A DNA stretch of 64,000 nt, taken from Escherichia phage vB_EcoP_SU7. Where the stretch lies: sequence record NC_070980.1. One strand, given 5' to 3'. Positions 2,050 through 54,508 of the stretch are shown piece by piece (position 1 is the first letter of the stretch; every line of letters begins with the position of its first letter). The notes beneath the pieces were generated by a model. The model did not search any database, had not been told where the DNA came from, and saw only the letters and a list, made by a program, of their open reading frames with translations. The translations under genes and the position numbers were made by a program.

Positions 2050-2113
2050 GAGTGAAACTTGTGAATAAGTAATGAAACTACTATATCCAAAAGGAAAATG
2101 AAAGGAGAAGAAA

Positions 2114-2332
2114 ATGAAAATGATGAAACAGGTAACTTATGGTCTAGCTTGCTTAGGGACAGGTTTTGTGATTTCCACAGCAGTACCTGTAAATGCAGTA
2201 GGCTCTCATTCTATTATAGAAGCTCCTGTAGAGAAGCTTAGTTCTCAATGTAAACAAAGGACCATTCAAAATAATTTGGTTGTTATTTGCCCAGACGCTC
2301 AATCTTCAGCTCTGAGAAAAATTCTTCCTTAA
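2114..2332 (+). CDS. small exported/membrane protein (possible lysis accessory protein)
   Basis: 72 aa with N-terminal hydrophobic segment; RBS AAAGGAG; sits immediately upstream of the lysozyme. Confidence 0.45.
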   Translation: MKMMKQVTYGLACLGTGFVISTAVPVNAVGSHSIIEAPVEKLSSQCKQRTIQNNLVVICPDAQSSALRKILP

Positions 2333-20968: not shown

Positions 20969-21193
20969 TTAAACTACACAGAATAAATACATTGCTGTTT
21001 CAGGGGAAGGTATGTGGTCACTAGGATATCTAACCCTAATCCACTCATCATCTTCTGCTACATAATAAGCCCAATAAGACCCATTTTCATTAATAAAGAA
21101 CTTGAAGGTACAACCAAAGATTTGGTTATTGTGTTCCCATACTGCATGAAACTGAGTAACACCTTCTGGTATTGTAAGTTCCGCTCTGATCAT
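20969..21193 (-). CDS. hypothetical protein
   Basis: 74-aa ORF in operon context. Confidence 0.4.
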   Translation of the reverse strand: MIRAELTIPEGVTQFHAVWEHNNQIFGCTFKFFINENGSYWAYYVAEDDEWIRVRYPSDHIPSPETAMYLFCVV

Positions 21194-21456
21194 TGTATTC
21201 CTCTCTCCTTTAGAGCTTTAAGCAAACCGTTGTGGTTAGCGGCACAGGTTGTATAAGTGTCCTGATACCACTCGAGTGTTGTTGCAAGTGCTACTCCCTG
21301 TCCACTCTGAAGTAAAGGGAGGTCTACATCACATTCAGCTTTTAGGTTTGTTGGTAAGGGCATTAGCTGCCTGCTGTTGTCGCTCGTTGAACAAGCCATC
21401 AAACTAGAAGCGAGAAAAATCACCAAACAACTCTTTTGCTTTTTCTTTGTAAGCAT
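21190..21456 (-). CDS. lipoprotein, candidate outer-membrane spanin
   Basis: Signal peptide with lipobox LMAC; short mature part with Pro and Cys; lies downstream of the candidate inner-membrane spanin. Confidence 0.4.
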   Translation of the reverse strand: MLTKKKQKSCLVIFLASSLMACSTSDNSRQLMPLPTNLKAECDVDLPLLQSGQGVALATTLEWYQDTYTTCAANHNGLLKALKERGIQ

Positions 21457-21790
21457 TTTCTGCACCCTCTTGAGTGCTGTGATAACCAAGCCAAATTACT
21501 TTGTTTTGATATCCGATGCGAGCACTCCATTTGTTAATATCCGACCTGTACCCTACACCTTTTATTCCAGTTAAAGAGTTCTTTTGAACTATTTTGTTGG
21601 CATTATTAAGGACAGGTGTTGCTCTTCTTAGATTGCTCCAAGAATTATTAGATTTGTCTAAATCTTTATGGTCTATTTGAAAATCAGGAATCTCTCCAGT
21701 TTTGATATACCAAGCAATTCTATGAGCTTTGTACTGTTTATATTGATAGGTAATCACTGTATAGCCATCTGTGGCTTTACAACCTGCCAC
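21404..21790 (-). CDS. HNH homing endonuclease with AP2-like DNA-binding domain
   Basis: IDHKDLDKSNNSWSNLR (HNH) and GIKGVGYRSDINKWSARIGY…GYHSTQEGAENAY (AP2-like). Confidence 0.6.
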   Translation of the reverse strand: MAGCKATDGYTVITYQYKQYKAHRIAWYIKTGEIPDFQIDHKDLDKSNNSWSNLRRATPVLNNANKIVQKNSLTGIKGVGYRSDINKWSARIGYQNKVIWLGYHSTQEGAENAYKEKAKELFGDFSRF

Positions 21791-21885
21791 CTTTCCAGCG
21801 AATCTTGAATTCCACTGAGCGCTCTTATCCTCAGAATGTTTCCAGTAGAGAAGACCAGAAACCTCATCGTAAGATAGATATTTAA

Positions 21886-22227
21886 CTAATTCTTTAATTT
21901 CAGTGCCTCCGCTGCTTGTTGCTGTCGTTCATTGAAAAGTCCTACATACTCATCACTAGCACACACATTGTAAAAAACTGGCTTAGTCTTTTCATAATGC
22001 ATCTCTTTGTAAATAGTTTCCGTGTTCTTCTTCCAGTTAGATAAACCAGTCAGAACTTTCTGAGCCACTTCATCAGCAGCCTTAGCTCTCTCAACCTCAA
22101 TCTCTTGCTGTTTCTTCTCATGGTCAAGAGCATTACTATTACTTCTGTATTGCTCAAACTTGACACCACCAAAGAAAATAATAGCTGTGAAAATAAGAAA
22201 GCCTATATTGTTTTGAAGCTTTTCCAT
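21886..22227 (-). CDS. type II membrane coiled-coil protein, candidate inner-membrane spanin
   Basis: N-terminal TM (IGFLIFTAIIFFGGV) then charged coiled coil; ATG at 22227. Confidence 0.4.
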   Translation of the reverse strand: MEKLQNNIGFLIFTAIIFFGGVKFEQYRSNSNALDHEKKQQEIEVERAKAADEVAQKVLTGLSNWKKNTETIYKEMHYEKTKPVFYNVCASDEYVGLFNERQQQAAEALKLKN

Positions 22228-22240
22228 TTTAACTCCAACG

Positions 22241-22264
22241 AAAAAAGCCACCCGAAGGTGGCTA
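22241..22264 (-). terminator. rho-independent terminator (minus strand)
   Basis: GCCACC-CGAA-GGTGGC stem with U-run on the minus-strand transcript, after the 22287 gene end. Confidence 0.5.
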
Positions 22265-43190: not shown

Positions 43191-45224
43191 TTAGTGTTTA
43201 CCTTTACAGTAATCTGAATTACAGATCACCCTGTTTTCTTTGTTCAGTGAGCAAGTTTCTGCATCACGCCACGGAATTTGTTTATAACAGACTGCACAAA
43301 ACCCAATTGAAGTCCAGAGGGCTTTTGTGAACTCGGCTGTTCGTTGTCCATCATAGCTGACAACTGTTTTTCGGAGAGAGGTTGACTTTTTTGGAAATGT
43401 CTCCGCTTTCTCAGCGGGTACCTCCTTTGGGGAATTCTTTGGACCATAAACAGAGATGGCATAAGTATCACCACCACGTTTTTCCAAATACGAATTAGGA
43501 ACATCTGCAAGTGTAATATCCCCTGAACGTTTTGCTGAGCTAACCATTACGATCATACGGCTAAGCATACGTTCATCAACACGAACAGCTACTTCAGGAC
43601 GACGTGGGTTGGTTGTGTCTACTGCTTTAGTCCAAATATAACCCTCAGATAGAGTAACATTCTTTACTTTATCTTTGATTTCTTTGGAGCAGATATAACA
43701 AACATCTTCACCACGAAGTTTACTCATTTCGTTGTCAAACTCGAAATCAGTCTTGACTTCACCACAGACAGCACATACGCCCAAAGGCACATCTTCTTCA
43801 TCTTCAGAGATTTTAGATAACGCTTCGAAGCATTCTGGATGCCAGTATGCTTGATAAGCAAACACAGCCTTACGAGCATCTTTCCAGTCAATGTGCTTAT
43901 CACAACCACCACAATCACCATGAGAGTGAGATTCCCAGAACTTACGAGTGACTTCTACACCATTTTTAGTGATGAAGGAGTCCTCTGCATCAAAAGGGAT
44001 GTCATCATCAAAATCAGCAGTAGTGCTTTGAGGCTCCTTATCTGTAGCATCAACAAACAGCCCTGAAGTTAGTACGAGGCGAATCATACTGTCCACTTCG
44101 GAGATACAAGCAATCGTCCCGCGATATACTACCTTTGGGTTTTCAAGAGCCTTAAGATATTCATCTTTGGCTACGTTGTGAACATCCCCTTCGACATACT
44201 CTTGGGCTTTATCGTCGTAGATGTAACCAATCATCTTACCACGATCTGTGTTGTTATAAGCATGGAACTCGTGAGGAATAATATCCACACGACCATCACG
44301 ACGATAAGGAAGACCACGATCGGCAGCCAGTTTGTTCTGGTCTTCAATCGCTTTACGACGACGAATGTCTCCGCTTGTCACGCCGGGCTTGTCGTCTTTG
44401 TTTCCGTAAATGTCGCTTGTGCTGCTGCTTGATTTGTTTGTCTGTTGGTTCTGATATAGAGAGGAGTTCGAGTAATAGCCGCCCCAGCGACTCGTTATCG
44501 TAAAAACCGGAAGCTTGTGCTCCACCTCTTGAACCAGAGTCATACGACTGTTAGACACATCAAAGATATACTCAGTTCCCACTTTACATTCGAAGTGGTC
44601 ATTGATACGGTTCTTGTGGGATTTAGAACGCTCTAAAATCCACATAAGCATAGCTTCTTCAGAAGCCCCAAACCAATCTAAACCACAACGGGCTAGGTGG
44701 AAAGGACGCTCATCATTACGGATAATGTGAAGCGTGTTGTCTTTAGCATCATGCCAAATCAAAGTGAATGCACCATCCAGTTTTTGGATAGTCTCTGCTG
44801 CTCCAATGGTATTAATTGAGTGGCAGATGTTTTCACTATCAACTTCGAAACGCTTACTGTCAGGAAGGAGATCTTGATCTAACAGGGTTCCATTATGAAC
44901 CAGAGTAATATCCCCGTGAGTAAATGGGTGAGCATTTCGAGCATTGACAGCCCCACGAGTGGCATGTCGGCTGTGACCAACAATCCACGAAGGAGGAACT
45001 ACGTAGTTCGTAAGCCCTTTGGTAATATTTGTATATTCTGTCTGGAGCATAAAAGCATAAGAAGGAAGAGCTTCTTTATAAGAGAAGACTTGCTTTTCAC
45101 CTTTACGCTGACCAAACACACCAGTTGAGTGCTGTCCACGGAAAACACCAGCATACAGAAGTTGGTTGAAAATATCCAAATCTGTTGAGGTCATGTTGCC
45201 GCCAGCTAATACGATACCACAAAT
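43191..45224 (-). CDS. class II glutamine amidotransferase-like (Ntn hydrolase) protein with C-terminal Cys-rich zinc-binding region
   Basis: In-frame CGIVLAGG sits just 5' of the track ATG and is preceded by AGGTGG plus an ATT codon 8 nt downstream; GVFRGQHSTG; C-terminal CxxC clusters. Confidence 0.5.
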   Translation of the reverse strand: MCGIVLAGGNMTSTDLDIFNQLLYAGVFRGQHSTGVFGQRKGEKQVFSYKEALPSYAFMLQTEYTNITKGLTNYVVPPSWIVGHSRHATRGAVNARNAHPFTHGDITLVHNGTLLDQDLLPDSKRFEVDSENICHSINTIGAAETIQKLDGAFTLIWHDAKDNTLHIIRNDERPFHLARCGLDWFGASEEAMLMWILERSKSHKNRINDHFECKVGTEYIFDVSNSRMTLVQEVEHKLPVFTITSRWGGYYSNSSLYQNQQTNKSSSSTSDIYGNKDDKPGVTSGDIRRRKAIEDQNKLAADRGLPYRRDGRVDIIPHEFHAYNNTDRGKMIGYIYDDKAQEYVEGDVHNVAKDEYLKALENPKVVYRGTIACISEVDSMIRLVLTSGLFVDATDKEPQSTTADFDDDIPFDAEDSFITKNGVEVTRKFWESHSHGDCGGCDKHIDWKDARKAVFAYQAYWHPECFEALSKISEDEEDVPLGVCAVCGEVKTDFEFDNEMSKLRGEDVCYICSKEIKDKVKNVTLSEGYIWTKAVDTTNPRRPEVAVRVDERMLSRMIVMVSSAKRSGDITLADVPNSYLEKRGGDTYAISVYGPKNSPKEVPAEKAETFPKKSTSLRKTVVSYDGQRTAEFTKALWTSIGFCAVCYKQIPWRDAETCSLNKENRVICNSDYCKGKH

Positions 45225-45301
45225 TTTCTAATCCACCTGAAGGGTAAACCCTTTCATCTAATTAACCTTTAAATGCGCCCTTTATCAGAGCGCCCATTGT
45301 G

Positions 45302-46402
45302 TTACAGCAGTCGTTCTAATTGCATTTCCAGATGGTCTGGAATGTAATCAGTGATGTTATTATCACTGCTACCTGATTCACGCATCAGAGCAAACATGTG
45401 ACGAATTTCACGAACCGTTGCGATTCGAGTGCTTTCAATCTGAGGGGTGTAGTAGGTCATGATCTCTTCATAGACAGTGTTGGCATTACCGCGCACATAT
45501 CCCAAGAAACCATAGAAGTCATTCATATCACGTAAGTTGATAAGGACTTCACCATCAGGGCCAGTCTGTTGCACACGAACACGACCAACCAAAGTTACAG
45601 ATTGCTCACGACAGAACAGAATATCACGAGCAAGACGATACCCTTCAGTGAGATCACTGTCTCTTGGAGTATAGTCTAGGGGTAGATGTTGAATCATAGG
45701 AGCGAAGCGCAGCTCATTCAACTTCTCAACATAAGCTTCATTGTCTAAATCTGCATATTCAACAGCCAGTTTCTTGAGAACCAAGAAGCGGTTGACCAGA
45801 TTCAGAAGTTGGCTCTTTTTCCACTTCGGCTCTGAGATACGGAACTCAACAGAACCAAATTGAGATAGAGGCAAAAGATTAAGGGAGGTATATTTATCCC
45901 AGCTATTAACAAGAGAGTGGAAGAAAGCTTCCCCGTCTCGGTTGAACGCTGACGAAGCATTCATAACTTGTGCTTGAACGACAGCAAAAGCTGGACAGAA
46001 GTTGCTACGATAGCGATGGTATCCAGAACATTTGAACATCATCTTTTCATAGAACGTCCATCCAAGAATAACTTTCTTAAGGATATTACTATCAGCGTCA
46101 CGCATATCCATATGAACGTGAGTGGAACAGCGCCAAGTTCCCTCGGCTCCAGAATCCTGTACTGCTTCACTCAGATTGTTAATAGCACGAAGTAATTCTT
46201 CACCGTTGTAAGGTCGTGCACATACTAATTCACAACCATCACGAAGAGAGCCATCTTCAGTACAAACCCACATATCAGCGTCAATGTTAGTTGTACCTTC
46301 GACTTCTAACTCAATACCAACACCACACTGAAAAGCAATACTTGGATGCGGTTCAGATAAGCGAGGGTTACGGTATCCAAAAACTTGTGCTACGGTTGTC
46401 AT
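45302..46402 (-). CDS. glutamine-synthetase-like amidoligase (putative carboxylate-amine ligase)
   Basis: GIELEVEG and STHVHMD metal-binding-type motifs; sits next to GATase II-like and AIG2-like genes. Confidence 0.4.
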   Translation of the reverse strand: MTTVAQVFGYRNPRLSEPHPSIAFQCGVGIELEVEGTTNIDADMWVCTEDGSLRDGCELVCARPYNGEELLRAINNLSEAVQDSGAEGTWRCSTHVHMDMRDADSNILKKVILGWTFYEKMMFKCSGYHRYRSNFCPAFAVVQAQVMNASSAFNRDGEAFFHSLVNSWDKYTSLNLLPLSQFGSVEFRISEPKWKKSQLLNLVNRFLVLKKLAVEYADLDNEAYVEKLNELRFAPMIQHLPLDYTPRDSDLTEGYRLARDILFCREQSVTLVGRVRVQQTGPDGEVLINLRDMNDFYGFLGYVRGNANTVYEEIMTYYTPQIESTRIATVREIRHMFALMRESGSSDNNITDYIPDHLEMQLERLL

Positions 46403-47034: not shown

Positions 47035-47844
47035 TTATACAATCTGGAGTTTAGAGGAGAATTTATCCGCTTCTTTAACATCGTTACTGTTGATGATGTT
47101 GTGAAGCTTTTCAATTGGAAGGCGAGAGTGAAGTGACATCAATACTTCCATATCACAGCCTTGAACAACCTTATCAACTTGCTCATAAACAAACTTGCGG
47201 GTTGACTTCTCGCCAATCCAGAAGTTAGAAAGAGAACGATATTCAATACCGTAATCTTTGTAGCGAATGGCAGAAGCCTTTCCGTATAACTCTTTACGAC
47301 GAGTATCTTTATCCATGATCACAGCTGGCAAGGACAGGAAGTAATCACACAACACACCTAACATCATTTGAGTCTGACGACTAATTTCCAGCGTACCAGT
47401 GACGCCAAGGTGAACATGACCACCAGCAGTACGCAGACCTTTGTCTGTCGCTACTGGAGATGGGTTTTTCTGACCAGTGAAGGCGTTGAAATCAGGAGTA
47501 CAACCAAATACAAAGGCTGACGGATGGAAAGATTCCATCTCTTCTGAAGTGAACACATGAGAGCTAATCCCAAGTGCTGCCTCCATGCCACGTTCATTGA
47601 GAACTTTGTTAGTCAGATCAATACCACGCTGAATGTTATCATTAAACGCTTCAAACCCTTTCTGTGGGTTAATATCGAACTCGGCCAGAACGTTGTCTTC
47701 TTGAAGACGAACATCAGGGGCCAGATCAATTTTGTTGTCTTTAGAGCAGCCCAGCTTACCAGCCACAGAGGTGATAATACCAGAAGCAGTACGAACAAAC
47801 ATTTCCGGATCCGACCCTATTAAGAATTTACGTTTAGTAGTCAT
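47035..47844 (-). CDS. hypothetical protein, possibly a second carboxylate-amine ligase-like enzyme
   Basis: IGSDPEMFV and GGHVHLG motifs; assignment weak. Confidence 0.3.
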   Translation of the reverse strand: MTTKRKFLIGSDPEMFVRTASGIITSVAGKLGCSKDNKIDLAPDVRLQEDNVLAEFDINPQKGFEAFNDNIQRGIDLTNKVLNERGMEAALGISSHVFTSEEMESFHPSAFVFGCTPDFNAFTGQKNPSPVATDKGLRTAGGHVHLGVTGTLEISRQTQMMLGVLCDYFLSLPAVIMDKDTRRKELYGKASAIRYKDYGIEYRSLSNFWIGEKSTRKFVYEQVDKVVQGCDMEVLMSLHSRLPIEKLHNIINSNDVKEADKFSSKLQIV

Positions 47845-48311
47845 GCTTTAGTCCAACCTTTATGAGATAGATAGTTTTTAAATCTGCCACTGTGCACAGC
47901 GCCCATGTGGCCTTGATGTAAGTCGTTGCTTCTACAGAAGTCTTTAAGATTGTATATTGTTACAACCTCGCCATCTGGAGATCTAAACTTCCAAAATCTA
48001 GCATTCCCTTTCACAGCGTTTTCTTCACTGGTCAGAAGTTGGAAATTACTTGGGTGGTTATTAAGTTTATCGCCATCGATGTGATCAACAGTCATACCAT
48101 CCGGAATAGGCCCAATAAACAATTCATACATAAGTCTATGTAATAAAAAGTTCCTTGTTATCTTTTCAGGAGCCTGAACTGTTGTAAACTTAAGATAACC
48201 ATCTTTATCAGGAAACAGTTTCCTCTGTTTCCCTGTTCTTGCATGGAATATACTACCGTCTTCGAACACCAAGAAGGTAGCAACTCCGACTACTAACTCC
48301 CTAAATTCCAT
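47841..48311 (-). CDS. HNH homing endonuclease
   Basis: VDHIDGDKLNNHPSNFQLLTSEENAVKG. Confidence 0.6.
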   Translation of the reverse strand: MEFRELVVGVATFLVFEDGSIFHARTGKQRKLFPDKDGYLKFTTVQAPEKITRNFLLHRLMYELFIGPIPDGMTVDHIDGDKLNNHPSNFQLLTSEENAVKGNARFWKFRSPDGEVVTIYNLKDFCRSNDLHQGHMGAVHSGRFKNYLSHKGWTKA

Positions 48312-54422: not shown

Positions 54423-54498
54423 TTGGTGCACCCTACAGGATTCGAACCTGTAACCAACGACTTAGAAGGTCGCTGCTCTGTCCATTGAGCTAAGGGTG
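54423..54498 (-). tRNA. tRNA-Arg (anticodon UCU)
   Basis: Minus-strand read GCACCCT-TA-GCTC…GAGC-A-GCGAC-CUUCUAA-GUCGU…ACAGG-UUCGAAU-CCUGU-AGGGUGC-A-CCA folds as a canonical cloverleaf with encoded CCA. Confidence 0.85.
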
Positions 54499-54508
54499 CT
54501 GGATTTGT

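What the first reader, a model, noticed from the sequence alone, without database searches (positions are those of the whole stretch)
45180..45224. Amidotransferase-like gene probably starts at a non-canonical ATT so that Cys becomes residue 1
The first ATG (45194) gives MTSTDL…, but the in-frame codons just upstream read K-I-C-G-I-V-L-A-G-G-N directly after a stop. Class II amidotransferase / Ntn hydrolases need an N-terminal Cys nucleophile. An AGGTGG Shine-Dalgarno sits 8 nt upstream of ATT-TGT, suggesting initiation at ATT (or processing) to yield Cys-Gly-Ile-Val….
Basis: seen in the sequence. Interest (0 to 1): 0.5.

Follow-up and report, generated by a model that had tools for sequence, protein, structure and literature searches.

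The report
Phage amidotransferase gene starting at ATT
A phage glutamine-amidotransferase gene almost certainly starts at the rare codon ATT, directly before its essential first cysteine; the type phage's record already shows this, most related records miss it, and many phage relatives share the arrangement with a small RNA hairpin next to the ribosome-binding site.

Summary
On the minus strand the sequence reads AGGTGG, 8 nt, ATT (45224-45222), TGT (Cys), with an in-frame TAG two codons upstream and the first ATG ten codons downstream.

The window is a phiEco32-like E. coli podophage. The gene encodes a class II (Ntn) glutamine amidotransferase whose Cys aligns with Cys1 of GlmS and PurF.

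The ATT start is strongly supported by comparison, not by experiment:
- the downstream ATG is absent in most of the clade;
- the codons between ATT and ATG vary synonymously;
- close ATG-using relatives have ATG exactly where ATT sits;
- in 80 related viral loci the codon before Cys is only ATG (68), ATT (8), ATC (3) or TTG (1);
- a control codon gave no genuine hits.

The call is not new. The phiEco32, SU10 and Bas87 records already start at this ATT, although most related records truncate the gene and lose the Cys.

New here:
- ATT/ATC starts recur across this phage family, usually with GGAGG 8 nt upstream and a 5-7 bp hairpin abutting it (14/20 ATT/ATC loci against 3/64 ATG loci).
- In the phiEco32 clade the leader is a 55-nt invariant block, the most conserved stretch of the locus. 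This is only partly explained.

The parts
43191..45224 (-). Proposed full CDS of the class II glutamine amidotransferase (677 codons including the ATT; mature protein begins at Cys). N-terminal ~240 aa form the Ntn glutaminase domain; the C-terminal ~430 aa are Cys-rich and have no Pfam match.
   Evidence: ORF and translation; Pfam GATase_6 E 2.7e-14; same extent annotated in Bas87, SU10 and phiEco32.
45222..45224 (-). ATT, proposed initiation codon.
   Evidence: Only non-stop codon besides AAA between the in-frame TAG and the Cys codon. Invariant in 9 clade members and in Aeromonas phage BUCT695. Aligned with ATG in L013 and L022-L026.
45219..45221 (-). TGT, catalytic N-terminal Cys (Cys1 of the mature enzyme).
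   Evidence: Invariant column C1 in the 33-sequence family alignment. Aligns to residue 1 of mature GlmS (1xff) and PurF (1ecb). In the AF2 model it leads straight into strand 1.
45233..45238 (-). AGGTGG Shine-Dalgarno, 8 nt before the ATT.
   Evidence: Sequence. Predicted anti-SD pairing -5.9 kcal/mol. The only base that differs in BUCT695 (AGGCGG) is the already mismatched 4th position. L227 has AGGAGG with the identical spacer ATTAGAAA.
45228..45230 (-). In-frame TAG stop, two codons before the ATT. It closes the frame upstream and ends the mini-ORF.
   Evidence: conserved in all clade members and in BUCT695.
45240..45253 (-). Leader hairpin AAGGG-UUUA-CCCUU. RNAfold extends it to UGAA(A)GGG...CCCUUCA, 45256-45238. 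It ends 1 nt before the SD.
   Evidence: RNAfold -5.6 kcal/mol in both the window and BUCT695; the BUCT695 change falls in the loop. A hairpin at the same position with different stem sequences occurs in 14/20 ATT/ATC loci against 3/64 ATG loci.
45228..45257 (-). 9-codon in-frame mini-ORF (MKGFTLQVD*), probably incidental to the hairpin and SD it overlaps.
   Evidence: The two differences in BUCT695 are both non-synonymous, and its upstream AAAGG is not conserved there. Most other ATT/ATC lineages lack such an ORF.
45217..45271 (-). 55-nt block invariant across the phiEco32 clade (67 nt, 45205-45271, with a single variable column). It covers the leader, hairpin, SD, stop, ATT and the first codons.
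   Evidence: Longest invariant run in a ~7.5 kb four-phage alignment; the next longest is 24 nt. Also seen in alignment A2 and present in 97 phage records.
45275..45293 (-). Stem-loop just after the amidoligase stop codon, with no U-tract.
   Evidence: Fold. Compensatory differences between subclades: GCGCTCT/AGGGCGC against GTGCCTC/GGGGCAC. Not scored as an intrinsic terminator.
45192..45194 (-). First in-frame ATG (codon 11), the start used in many deposited annotations. It is an internal Met codon.
   Evidence: Present only in the window/Bas87/ECBP2 subclade; CTC or CTG elsewhere.
45302..46402 (-). Upstream gene for an Amidoligase_2 protein, the likely partner enzyme in the same operon.
   Evidence: Pfam PF12224 E 2.2e-08; annotated as amidoligase in relatives.

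Best explanation
Translation of this early-operon gene starts at AUU (45224-45222). The AGGUGG Shine-Dalgarno 8 nt upstream directs the start. Initiator fMet-tRNA reads the AUU, and host deformylase and methionine aminopeptidase remove the Met. The mature enzyme therefore begins with Cys1, the nucleophile of a class II (Ntn) glutamine amidotransferase. This enzyme probably supplies ammonia to the neighbouring amidoligase-type enzymes. The weak start codon keeps synthesis low, or makes it conditional on host state. A short hairpin abutting the SD is part of the same conserved initiation module, and probably holds the SD exposed or stabilises 30S binding. Shown here: the sequence layout, the homology, the fold, the conservation, and the recurrence of the module. 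Inferred: AUU use in vivo, Met removal, the role of the hairpin, and the reason for a weak start.
For: (1) Family and Cys1: Pfam. The profile aligns Cys to residue 1 of GlmS (E 5e-21) and PurF. AF2 pLDDT 94.2 with top Foldseek hits GlmS, PurF, GFAT, ASNS and EgtC. C1, G2, R28-G29, R85, T88, N110-G111 and D128 are invariant.
(2) No other start is possible: TAG two codons upstream. The downstream ATG is replaced by CTC or CTG in EP335, KBNP1711, SU10 and phiEco32. Codons 2-9 vary almost only synonymously.
(3) Position homology: the 72%-identical L013 and L022-L026 have ATG-TGT-GG at the aligned site. 46 of 51 protein homologues begin MCG, and the 3 with longer called N-termini all have Ile before Cys.
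(4) Recurrence: in 80 viral loci the codon before Cys is ATG 68, ATT 8, ATC 3, TTG 1 and nothing else. Several have no canonical start between the previous stop and the ATT/ATC. They are scattered over the tree and form 8 clusters at 50% identity.
(5) Controlled scan GGAGG-N8-XXX-TGTGGNNTNGT: 10 genuine GATases with ATT, 10 with ATG, 0 with the ACT control. A 19-base pattern gave 2 hits in 596 Gb of genomes, both GATases at ATT.
(6) Stronger SDs accompany ATT/ATC starts (median -9.3 against -6.1 kcal/mol, p 0.01).
(7) Hairpin abutting the SD: 14/20 ATT/ATC loci, 3/64 ATG loci (Fisher 6e-9), 1.5/20 in shuffles, 9/113 in matched-context chance hits.
(8) The orthologous protein is made in SU10 infection (9 peptides; PMC4281155).
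(9) AUU and AUC initiate in E. coli at 1-2% of AUG and still give N-terminal Met (bioRxiv 10.1101/063800).
Against: No N-terminal peptide, toeprint or ribosome-profiling data exist for this or any orthologue. The SU10 proteomics gave an expected mass of 63.8 kDa, below what the 676-codon CDS implies, so it cannot inform the N-terminus. AUU is a poor start (1-2% of AUG), yet the protein was readily detected. The window's own SD is only average (-5.9 kcal/mol). The mini-ORF ending 3 nt before the AUU leaves termination-reinitiation possible. The invariance of 55 nt is more than hairpin, SD and start codon require. The ATT leaders share GGAGGAT(A/T), so they may be homologous rather than independent; this weakens the 'many origins' reading and could confound the hairpin-ATT association with ancestry.
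Confidence: 0.87

Rival explanations
1. AUU is the start, but it is reached mainly by termination-reinitiation. Ribosomes translate the 9-codon mini-ORF (45257-45228), stop at UAG and restart 3 nt downstream at AUU, held in place by the SD inside the mini-ORF.
For: The mini-ORF and its stop are conserved in the phiEco32 clade and in the distant Aeromonas phage BUCT695. In about 9 of 20 ATT/ATC loci a stop codon 1-4 nt before the start ends an upstream ORF that has a canonical start: long ORFs in L014, L066, L257 and L237, and short ones in L245, L236 and L227.
Against: The U and G of the mini-ORF's AUG lie within the predicted hairpin stem. Its upstream AAAGG is lost in BUCT695. Both BUCT695 differences are non-synonymous and fall in the hairpin loop and at the SD mismatch position, which suggests RNA-level rather than peptide-level constraint. 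Six ATT lineages have no such upstream ORF yet keep the hairpin-SD-N8-ATT layout.
Confidence: 0.15
2. Translation starts at the mini-ORF ATG and reads through the UAG. A 12-residue propeptide is then removed autocatalytically to expose Cys, as in B. subtilis PurF or GltB.
For: The mini-ORF is in frame with the gene. Propeptide removal is known in this enzyme family (my own knowledge: B. subtilis PurF has an 11-residue propeptide).
Against: The window encodes no suppressor tRNA, only tRNA-Arg. Readthrough of UAG is inefficient in wild-type E. coli (my own knowledge). In five other lineages no canonical start lies between the previous stop and the ATT/ATC. If propeptides were the explanation, the residue before Cys need not always be Ile, yet only ATT, ATC or TTG ever replace ATG. 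Where upstream ATGs were called by gene finders, they lack an SD while the ATT has a consensus one.
Confidence: 0.02
3. The gene starts at the ATG at 45194, as annotated in ECBP2 and HC-25922, and makes a Cys-less, catalytically dead amidotransferase-like protein.
For: It is the first canonical start and is used in several GenBank records.
Against: That ATG is absent in most of the clade. The ten codons upstream are conserved with synonymous variation, and their CGIV matches the family's CG[IL]V N-terminus. All catalytic residues are intact. No SD precedes the ATG.
Confidence: 0.02
4. The hairpin and the invariant leader are unrelated to initiation at AUU. They could be an RNA-stability or processing element, a protein-binding operator, or a recombination boundary that happens to adjoin the start.
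For: The 55-nt invariance exceeds what a hairpin, SD and start codon need. BUCT695 keeps the leader although its protein is only 55-61% identical, which is compatible with cassette transfer. HNH endonuclease genes or remnants lie nearby in some phages. No Rfam family matches and the fold z-score is only -0.96.
Against: The hairpin's 3' end sits 13-15 nt from the start codon in most hairpin-bearing lineages, with unrelated stem sequences, and it is rare in ATG-start homologues and in matched-context background. It is absent in all 10 genuine ATG-start sequences found with the same GGAGG-N8 pattern.
Confidence: 0.25

Closest known systems
E. coli infC and pcnB (AUU-initiated genes)
   Same: AUU start codon read by initiator tRNA; the weak start gives low or regulated output. 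These are the only two confirmed non-canonical starts in E. coli.
   Different: This is a phage gene. The AUU (sometimes AUC) is maintained across many divergent homologues, at a fixed 8-nt distance from GGAGG, with an adjacent hairpin. No IF3 feedback logic is apparent. Nothing has been shown experimentally.
Class II (Ntn, PurF-type) glutamine amidotransferases: GlmS, PurF, AsnB
   Same: Same fold and same catalytic residues. The mature N-terminal Cys is exposed by Met removal.
   Different: A stand-alone glutaminase domain is fused to a Cys-rich C-terminal region with no Pfam match. The protein is encoded in a phage amidoligase operon, and the start codon is ATT instead of ATG. One bacterial GlmS-like gene with an ATT start was also found (L403).
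B. subtilis PurF and glutamate synthase GltB propeptides
   Same: An alternative known way for Ntn amidotransferases to end up with Cys1 (my own knowledge).
   Different: That route needs an open frame from a canonical start. Here a TAG lies two codons upstream of the ATT, so the defining feature is not met.
phiEco32-type amidoligase / COOH-NH2 ligase / GATase gene cluster (Iyer et al. 2009, as cited in PMC10580990)
   Same: Same gene neighbourhood: Amidoligase_2, COOH-NH2_lig, GATase, with a RimK-like ligase annotated in relatives. The window belongs to this phage group.
   Different: That work concerned predicted enzyme function. The start codon and leader architecture were not mentioned in anything I could read, and the paper itself was not available.
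Enterococcus faecalis ebpA ATT start (PMC4447247)
   Same: A rare ATT start. The paper's title says it attenuates EbpA pilus expression, and its abstract says the annotated start was an ATG 120 bp downstream.
   Different: It is a single bacterial gene rather than a family-wide pattern, and no catalytic reason fixes the position of its start.

Membership tests
Class II (Ntn/PurF-type) glutamine amidotransferase | Catalytic Cys as the first residue of the mature protein (directly after the initiator Met, or after a cleaved propeptide) | tested here: met
   Met only if translation starts at ATT 45224. The Cys codon 45221-45219 follows it directly. Cys aligns to residue 1 of 1xff and 1ecb.
Class II (Ntn/PurF-type) glutamine amidotransferase | Four-layer alpha-beta-beta-alpha Ntn hydrolase fold | tested here: met
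   AF2 model pLDDT 94.2, pTM 0.92. Foldseek top hits are the GlmS glutaminase domain (E 4e-15, TM 0.70), PurF, GFAT, ASNS and EgtC.
Class II (Ntn/PurF-type) glutamine amidotransferase | Glutamine-binding and oxyanion residues (GlmS Arg73, Thr76, Asn98-Gly99, Asp123) | tested here: met
   Window R85, T88, N110-G111 and D128 are invariant in the family alignment and align with HTRWAT, VHNG and TDTE of GlmS.
Class II (Ntn/PurF-type) glutamine amidotransferase | Glutaminase activity coupled to an acceptor (synthase) domain or partner | not testable with these tools
   Only context is available: the adjacent Amidoligase_2 and COOH-NH2_lig genes.
Genes initiated at a non-canonical AUU/AUC codon (infC/pcnB type) | AUU/AUC at the position where the protein must begin, with no in-frame canonical start that gives a functional product | tested here: met
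   TAG-AAA-ATT-TGT. The downstream ATG is not conserved. ATG occupies this position in relatives.
Genes initiated at a non-canonical AUU/AUC codon (infC/pcnB type) | Shine-Dalgarno at functional spacing | tested here: met
   AGGTGG lies 8 nt upstream. GGAGG-N8 is seen in most other ATT lineages.
Genes initiated at a non-canonical AUU/AUC codon (infC/pcnB type) | Experimentally mapped initiation (N-terminal Met or processed N-terminus, toeprint, start-site profiling) | not testable with these tools
   No such data were found.
Genes initiated at a non-canonical AUU/AUC codon (infC/pcnB type) | IF3-dependent discrimination or regulation | not testable with these tools
   Inference only. AUU mRNAs compete poorly with AUG mRNAs, and nutrient limitation and ppGpp depress non-AUG starts (PMC5499595).
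Ntn amidotransferases matured by propeptide cleavage (B. subtilis PurF, GltB) | Open reading frame from a canonical start codon through a propeptide to the Cys | tested here: not met
   In-frame TAG two codons before the ATT. No suppressor tRNA in the window.
Known structured RNA families (riboswitches, leaders) in Rfam 15 | Match to a curated covariance model | tested here: not met
   The best match has E 0.26 and 18 bits, far below its gathering score of 44.

The most novel reading that the evidence does not exclude
The hairpin + GGAGG + 8-nt spacer + AUU (sometimes AUC) layout is a selected, dedicated translation-control module that many lineages of phage Ntn-amidotransferase genes have kept. 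It permits a near-cognate start and ties synthesis of a glutamine-consuming enzyme to the host's translational or nutritional state (IF3, ppGpp). In phiEco32-like phages and one Aeromonas phage it has been elaborated into an invariant 55-nt leader with a 9-codon mini-ORF, which acts as an operator or sensor.
Probability: 0.3. Interest if true: 0.65.

Novelty: new member of a known kind. Interest (0 to 1): 0.45.

Why it matters
**Annotation.** Of 38 annotated records among the 40 listed, taken at even steps down the ranking of the 97 that carry the leader, only 5 have a CDS over the ATT. The others begin the CDS downstream and delete the catalytic Cys, so the enzyme looks dead. Gene callers limited to ATG/GTG/TTG will repeat this error for an appreciable share of phage Ntn amidotransferases (11 of 80 loci here).

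**Biology.** Confirmed AUU starts in E. coli number two. A family in which AUU/AUC starts persist across deep divergence, at a fixed SD distance and next to a hairpin whose stem sequence differs between lineages while pairing is kept, would be a natural system for studying how near-cognate initiation is made workable and why it is selected. The position of the start is independently fixed by enzyme chemistry, which makes this family an unusually clean test case.

Tried and rejected
- **Repeated promoter box:** the leader 16-mer is unique in the window. The phage sigma motif tAATGTATAtA (PMC4281155) is not in it, and no sigma-70-like promoter or terminator scored.
- **Known RNA family or riboswitch:** nothing in Rfam. 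The fold is not better than shuffles, z -0.96.
- **Suppressor tRNA or recoded TAG:** the window has only tRNA-Arg(TCT).
- **Broad scan AGGAGG-N7-11-TGTGG:** Only 7 genuine GATases were recovered: 5 ATG, 1 ATC, 1 ATT.
- **Metagenome scan with a 14-base pattern:** all 113 distinct hits were chance. It failed as an independent test set and was reused only as a matched-context background.
- **Formal covariation count:** MAFFT only right-aligns the 14 modules. Loop length and hairpin-to-SD gap vary, so no single bracket string fits, and counting hand-picked stems would be circular. It was not run.
- **Literature:** the phiEco32 genome paper and Iyer et al. 2009 are not held. No paper on ATT starts in amidotransferases or phiEco32 was found. 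The SU10 supplements hold nothing on the N-terminus. PMC4648390 deals with reinitiation studied in Xenopus oocytes, a eukaryotic system, so it was not used.
- **Group I intron at the split spanin:** no Rfam hit.
Full report
**Observation.** The gene lies on the minus strand. Read 5' to 3' on that strand, the sequence is ...TTAG ATG AAA GGG TTT ACC CTT CAG GTG GAT TAG AAA ATT TGT GGT ATC GTA TTA GCT GGC GGC AAC ATG ACC TCA....
- AGGTGG occupies 45238-45233.
- The in-frame TAG occupies 45230-45228.
- ATT occupies 45224-45222, and the Cys codon TGT 45221-45219.
- The first ATG occupies 45194-45192.

**What the locus is.** The window is a phiEco32-like E. coli podophage (Gordonclarkvirinae). It is 98.5-98.6% identical over this region to HC-25922, Bas87, IME267 and others. 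The gene sits in the early operon described for SU10 and phiEco32 (PMC4281155). It lies downstream of genes with Pfam Amidoligase_2 and COOH-NH2_lig domains. The N-terminal ~240 residues match GATase_6/7/4.

**The Cys is the N-terminal nucleophile.**
- A profile of 33 family members aligns end to end with the glutaminase domain of GlmS (1xff, E 5e-21; 4amv, E 2e-22) and with PurF (1ecb). The family's Cys falls on residue 1 of the mature crystallised enzymes.
- Residues C1, G2, R28-G29, R85, T88, N110-G111 and D128 are invariant. They correspond to GlmS Arg73, Thr76, Asn98-Gly99 and Asp123.
- An AlphaFold2 model (pLDDT 94.2, pTM 0.92) starts its first strand at residue 2. Its best PDB matches are GlmS, PurF, GFAT, ASNS and EgtC.

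This is a bona fide class II (Ntn) amidotransferase, so its mature form must begin with Cys.

**Evidence that ATT is the start, within the clade.** Only AAA and ATT lie between the TAG and the Cys codon.
- The ATG at 45194 exists only in the window/Bas87/ECBP2 subclade. EP335 and KBNP1711 have CTC there, and SU10, phiEco32 and two IMG/VR phages have CTG.
- Codons 2-9 differ between subclades almost only at synonymous sites: GGT/GGC, GCT/GCA, GGC/GGG/GGT, GGC/GGA/GGT. The region upstream of the window's ATG is therefore coding.

**Evidence that ATT is the start, outside the clade.**
- The closest ATG-using relative (L013, 72% identical) reads ...aaaagata ATG TGT GGA ATC GTA TTA GC... ATG sits exactly where ATT sits here. 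L022-L026 (56-65% identical) show the same.
- Of 51 protein homologues, 46 begin MCG. The three with longer called N-termini all have Ile immediately before Cys.
- Their DNA shows cAGGAGGAtaaaccc ATT TGT (L014) and cAGGAGGAtagtacc ATT TGC (L016). The ATGs chosen upstream by gene callers have no SD.

**Survey and controls.**
- In 80 related viral loci the codon before the Cys is ATG in 68, ATT in 8, ATC in 3 and TTG in 1. It is never GTG or any non-start codon.
- In L044, L061, L066, L065 and L087 no canonical start lies between the previous in-frame stop and the ATT/ATC.
- ATT/ATC loci are scattered over a neighbour-joining tree, and ATT and ATC interchange inside one clade. Twenty distinct ATT/ATC sequences fall into 8 clusters at 50% identity.
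- A fixed-spacing scan of viral contigs (GGAGG-N8-XXX-TGTGGNNTNGT) found 10 genuine GATase N-termini with ATT, 10 with ATG and none with the control codon ACT.
- A 19-base pattern gave only two hits in 596 Gb of prokaryotic genomes. Both are GATases starting at ATT, and one is a bacterial GlmS-like gene.
- A near-identical pair from another GATase subfamily uses ATC (L108) and ATG (L213).
- ATT/ATC loci have stronger SD pairing than ATG loci: median -9.3 against -6.1 kcal/mol, p 0.010.

For scale, ATG, GTG and TTG make up about 99.95% of annotated bacterial starts, and only infC and pcnB are confirmed AUU starts in E. coli.

**Annotation status.**
- The ATT start is already in public records: phiEco32 phi32_83 (2031 nt, verified base by base), SU10_085, and Bas87, Bas88 and Bas92.
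- ECBP2 and HC-25922 start at the ATG. EP335 starts about 57 codons in. BUCT695 starts at a downstream ATG.
- Of 38 annotated records in a spread sample, only 5 have a CDS over the ATT.
- I found no paper that discusses it.

**Rival routes to Cys1.**
- Readthrough of the UAG from the mini-ORF, followed by propeptide cleavage, is unlikely. There is no suppressor tRNA. Other lineages have no upstream canonical start. The residue before Cys would not need to be Ile in every case.
- Termination-reinitiation from the mini-ORF cannot be excluded, but several points argue against it. The U and G of the mini-ORF's AUG lie in the predicted stem. Its upstream AAAGG is lost in Aeromonas phage BUCT695. 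The two BUCT695 differences are non-synonymous and fall in the hairpin loop and at the mismatched SD position. Six ATT lineages lack any such ORF.

**A conserved initiation module.**
- Lining up the leaders of ATT/ATC loci shows a 5-7 bp hairpin (loop 3-5 nt) that in most cases ends 13-15 nt before the start codon, which is 0-2 nt before the SD.
- The stems are unrelated in sequence: AAGGG/CCCTT in the window, GACGG/CCGTC in L016, GCTGC/GCAGC in L014, AAGCT/AGCTT in L227, GTCGG/CCGAC in L245, CCGGC/GCCGG in L236, GACTC/GAGTC in L256 and GCCCT/AGGGC in L061, among others.
- A stem of at least 5 bp at this position occurs in 14 of 20 ATT/ATC loci and in 3 of 64 ATG loci (Fisher 6e-9). It occurs in 1.5 of 20 on average in shuffles and in 9 of 113 chance sequences with the same SD-ATT-TGYGG context.
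- None of the 10 genuine ATG-start sequences found with the same GGAGG-N8 pattern has it.
- A new ATT locus from the genome scan (L402) also has a stem abutting AGGAGG.
- The ATT leaders share GGAGGAT(A/T). They may therefore descend from one ancestral leader, and the number of independent origins is uncertain. Even so, the stems have changed while pairing was kept.

**The invariant leader.**
- In a 7.5-kb alignment of four divergent clade members (46.6% of columns invariant), the longest invariant run is 55 nt, at 45271-45217. The next longest is 24 nt.
- BUCT695 belongs to another phage family, and its GATase domain is only 55-61% identical. That is less similar than several ATG-using relatives. 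Yet it differs at just two bases between the mini-ORF ATG and the ATT.
- A hairpin, an SD and a start codon do not explain invariance of this extent. That part remains open.

**How it most likely works.** The following is inference from established E. coli biology.
- The 30S subunit binds the AGGUGG SD, and fMet-tRNA pairs with AUU. Mass spectrometry shows N-terminal Met from an AUC start.
- Deformylase and methionine aminopeptidase remove Met before the small residue Cys, as for GlmS, PurF and AsnB (my own knowledge).
- AUU gives roughly 1-2% of AUG output. It competes poorly with AUG mRNAs, and nutrient limitation and ppGpp depress non-AUG starts (PMC5499595). Output is therefore kept low or tied to host state.
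- The hairpin next to the SD may keep it single-stranded or may stack on the SD helix. This is untested.

**Novelty and interest.** For this gene the start-codon call is already in databases. AUU initiation is a known kind of feature. What appears new is the family-wide persistence of ATT/ATC with a structured leader at fixed spacing, and the scale of mis-annotation. Interest is moderate.

Noticed in passing
window 21404-21898 (-), flanked by ORFs 21886-22251 and 21190-21489 (-): This ORF encodes an HNH_3 + AP2 endonuclease. Its called start is GTG at 21790. The open frame continues upstream as IKELVKYLSYDEVSGLLYWKH, which looks to me like part of the protein (resemblance judged from memory). 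The only plausible start there is ATT 21898-21896, with GGAGG 7 nt upstream, so this may be a second ATT-start candidate. In Bas86 the surrounding Rz-like spanin is annotated as a CDS joined from two pieces with this HNH gene in the gap, which implies an intron-like insertion. Only 3 phage records carry it, and Rfam finds no group I intron.
   Followed up: partly
window 47841-48311 (-): An HNH_3 endonuclease gene lies between the COOH-NH2 ligase gene and the 316-aa gene. It is present in only 5 related records (Bas86 at 99.6%, SDYTW1-F1-2-2_3, PE006 twice, Bas89). It is absent from Bas87, ECBP2, HC-25922 and most others, so it is a sporadic mobile insertion.
   Followed up: partly
L403 (JAPLOW010000103.1, Hyphomicrobiales MAG), about 2090-2119 (-): A bacterial GlmS-like gene ([32 protein letters not shown]...) is preceded by AGGAGGATataact ATT TGC. 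ATT-Cys starts are therefore not confined to the phage family.
   Followed up: no
L108 and L213 (IMG/VR contigs): Near-identical proteins of a different GATase subfamily (CGIVCYWAKE...) start at ATC in one contig and at ATG in the other.
   Followed up: no
L100 (Aeromonas phage BUCT695, NC_070977) 2308-2500: Between the amidoligase-like gene and the conserved leader lies about 190 nt. It includes a short ORF beginning MDKVLKKITHQGDCWLWTGCINSDGYP, which looks like the remnant of an HNH endonuclease N-terminus.
   Followed up: no
window 45275-45293 (-): A stem-loop lies directly after the amidoligase stop codon. It shows compensatory differences between subclades and has no U-tract, so it may be a processing or stability element rather than an intrinsic terminator.
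   Followed up: partly
window 43191-44500 (-), the C-terminal ~430 aa of the amidotransferase: This is a long Cys-rich region with several CxxC...CxxC modules and no Pfam match. Most homologues are about 400 aa with one such module, while the phiEco32-clade protein is 676 aa.
   Followed up: no
window 54424-54499 (-): tRNA-Arg (anticodon TCT), the only tRNA gene found in the window.
   Followed up: no
ATT-start leaders in L014, L016, L061, L066, L234, L236, L237, L245, L256, L260, L227: The SD is nearly always extended as GGAGGAT(A/T)(A/G). This places a TAG or TAA between the SD and the ATT, but that stop ends an upstream ORF with a canonical start in only about half the cases. The reason for this conserved extension is unexplained.
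   Followed up: partly
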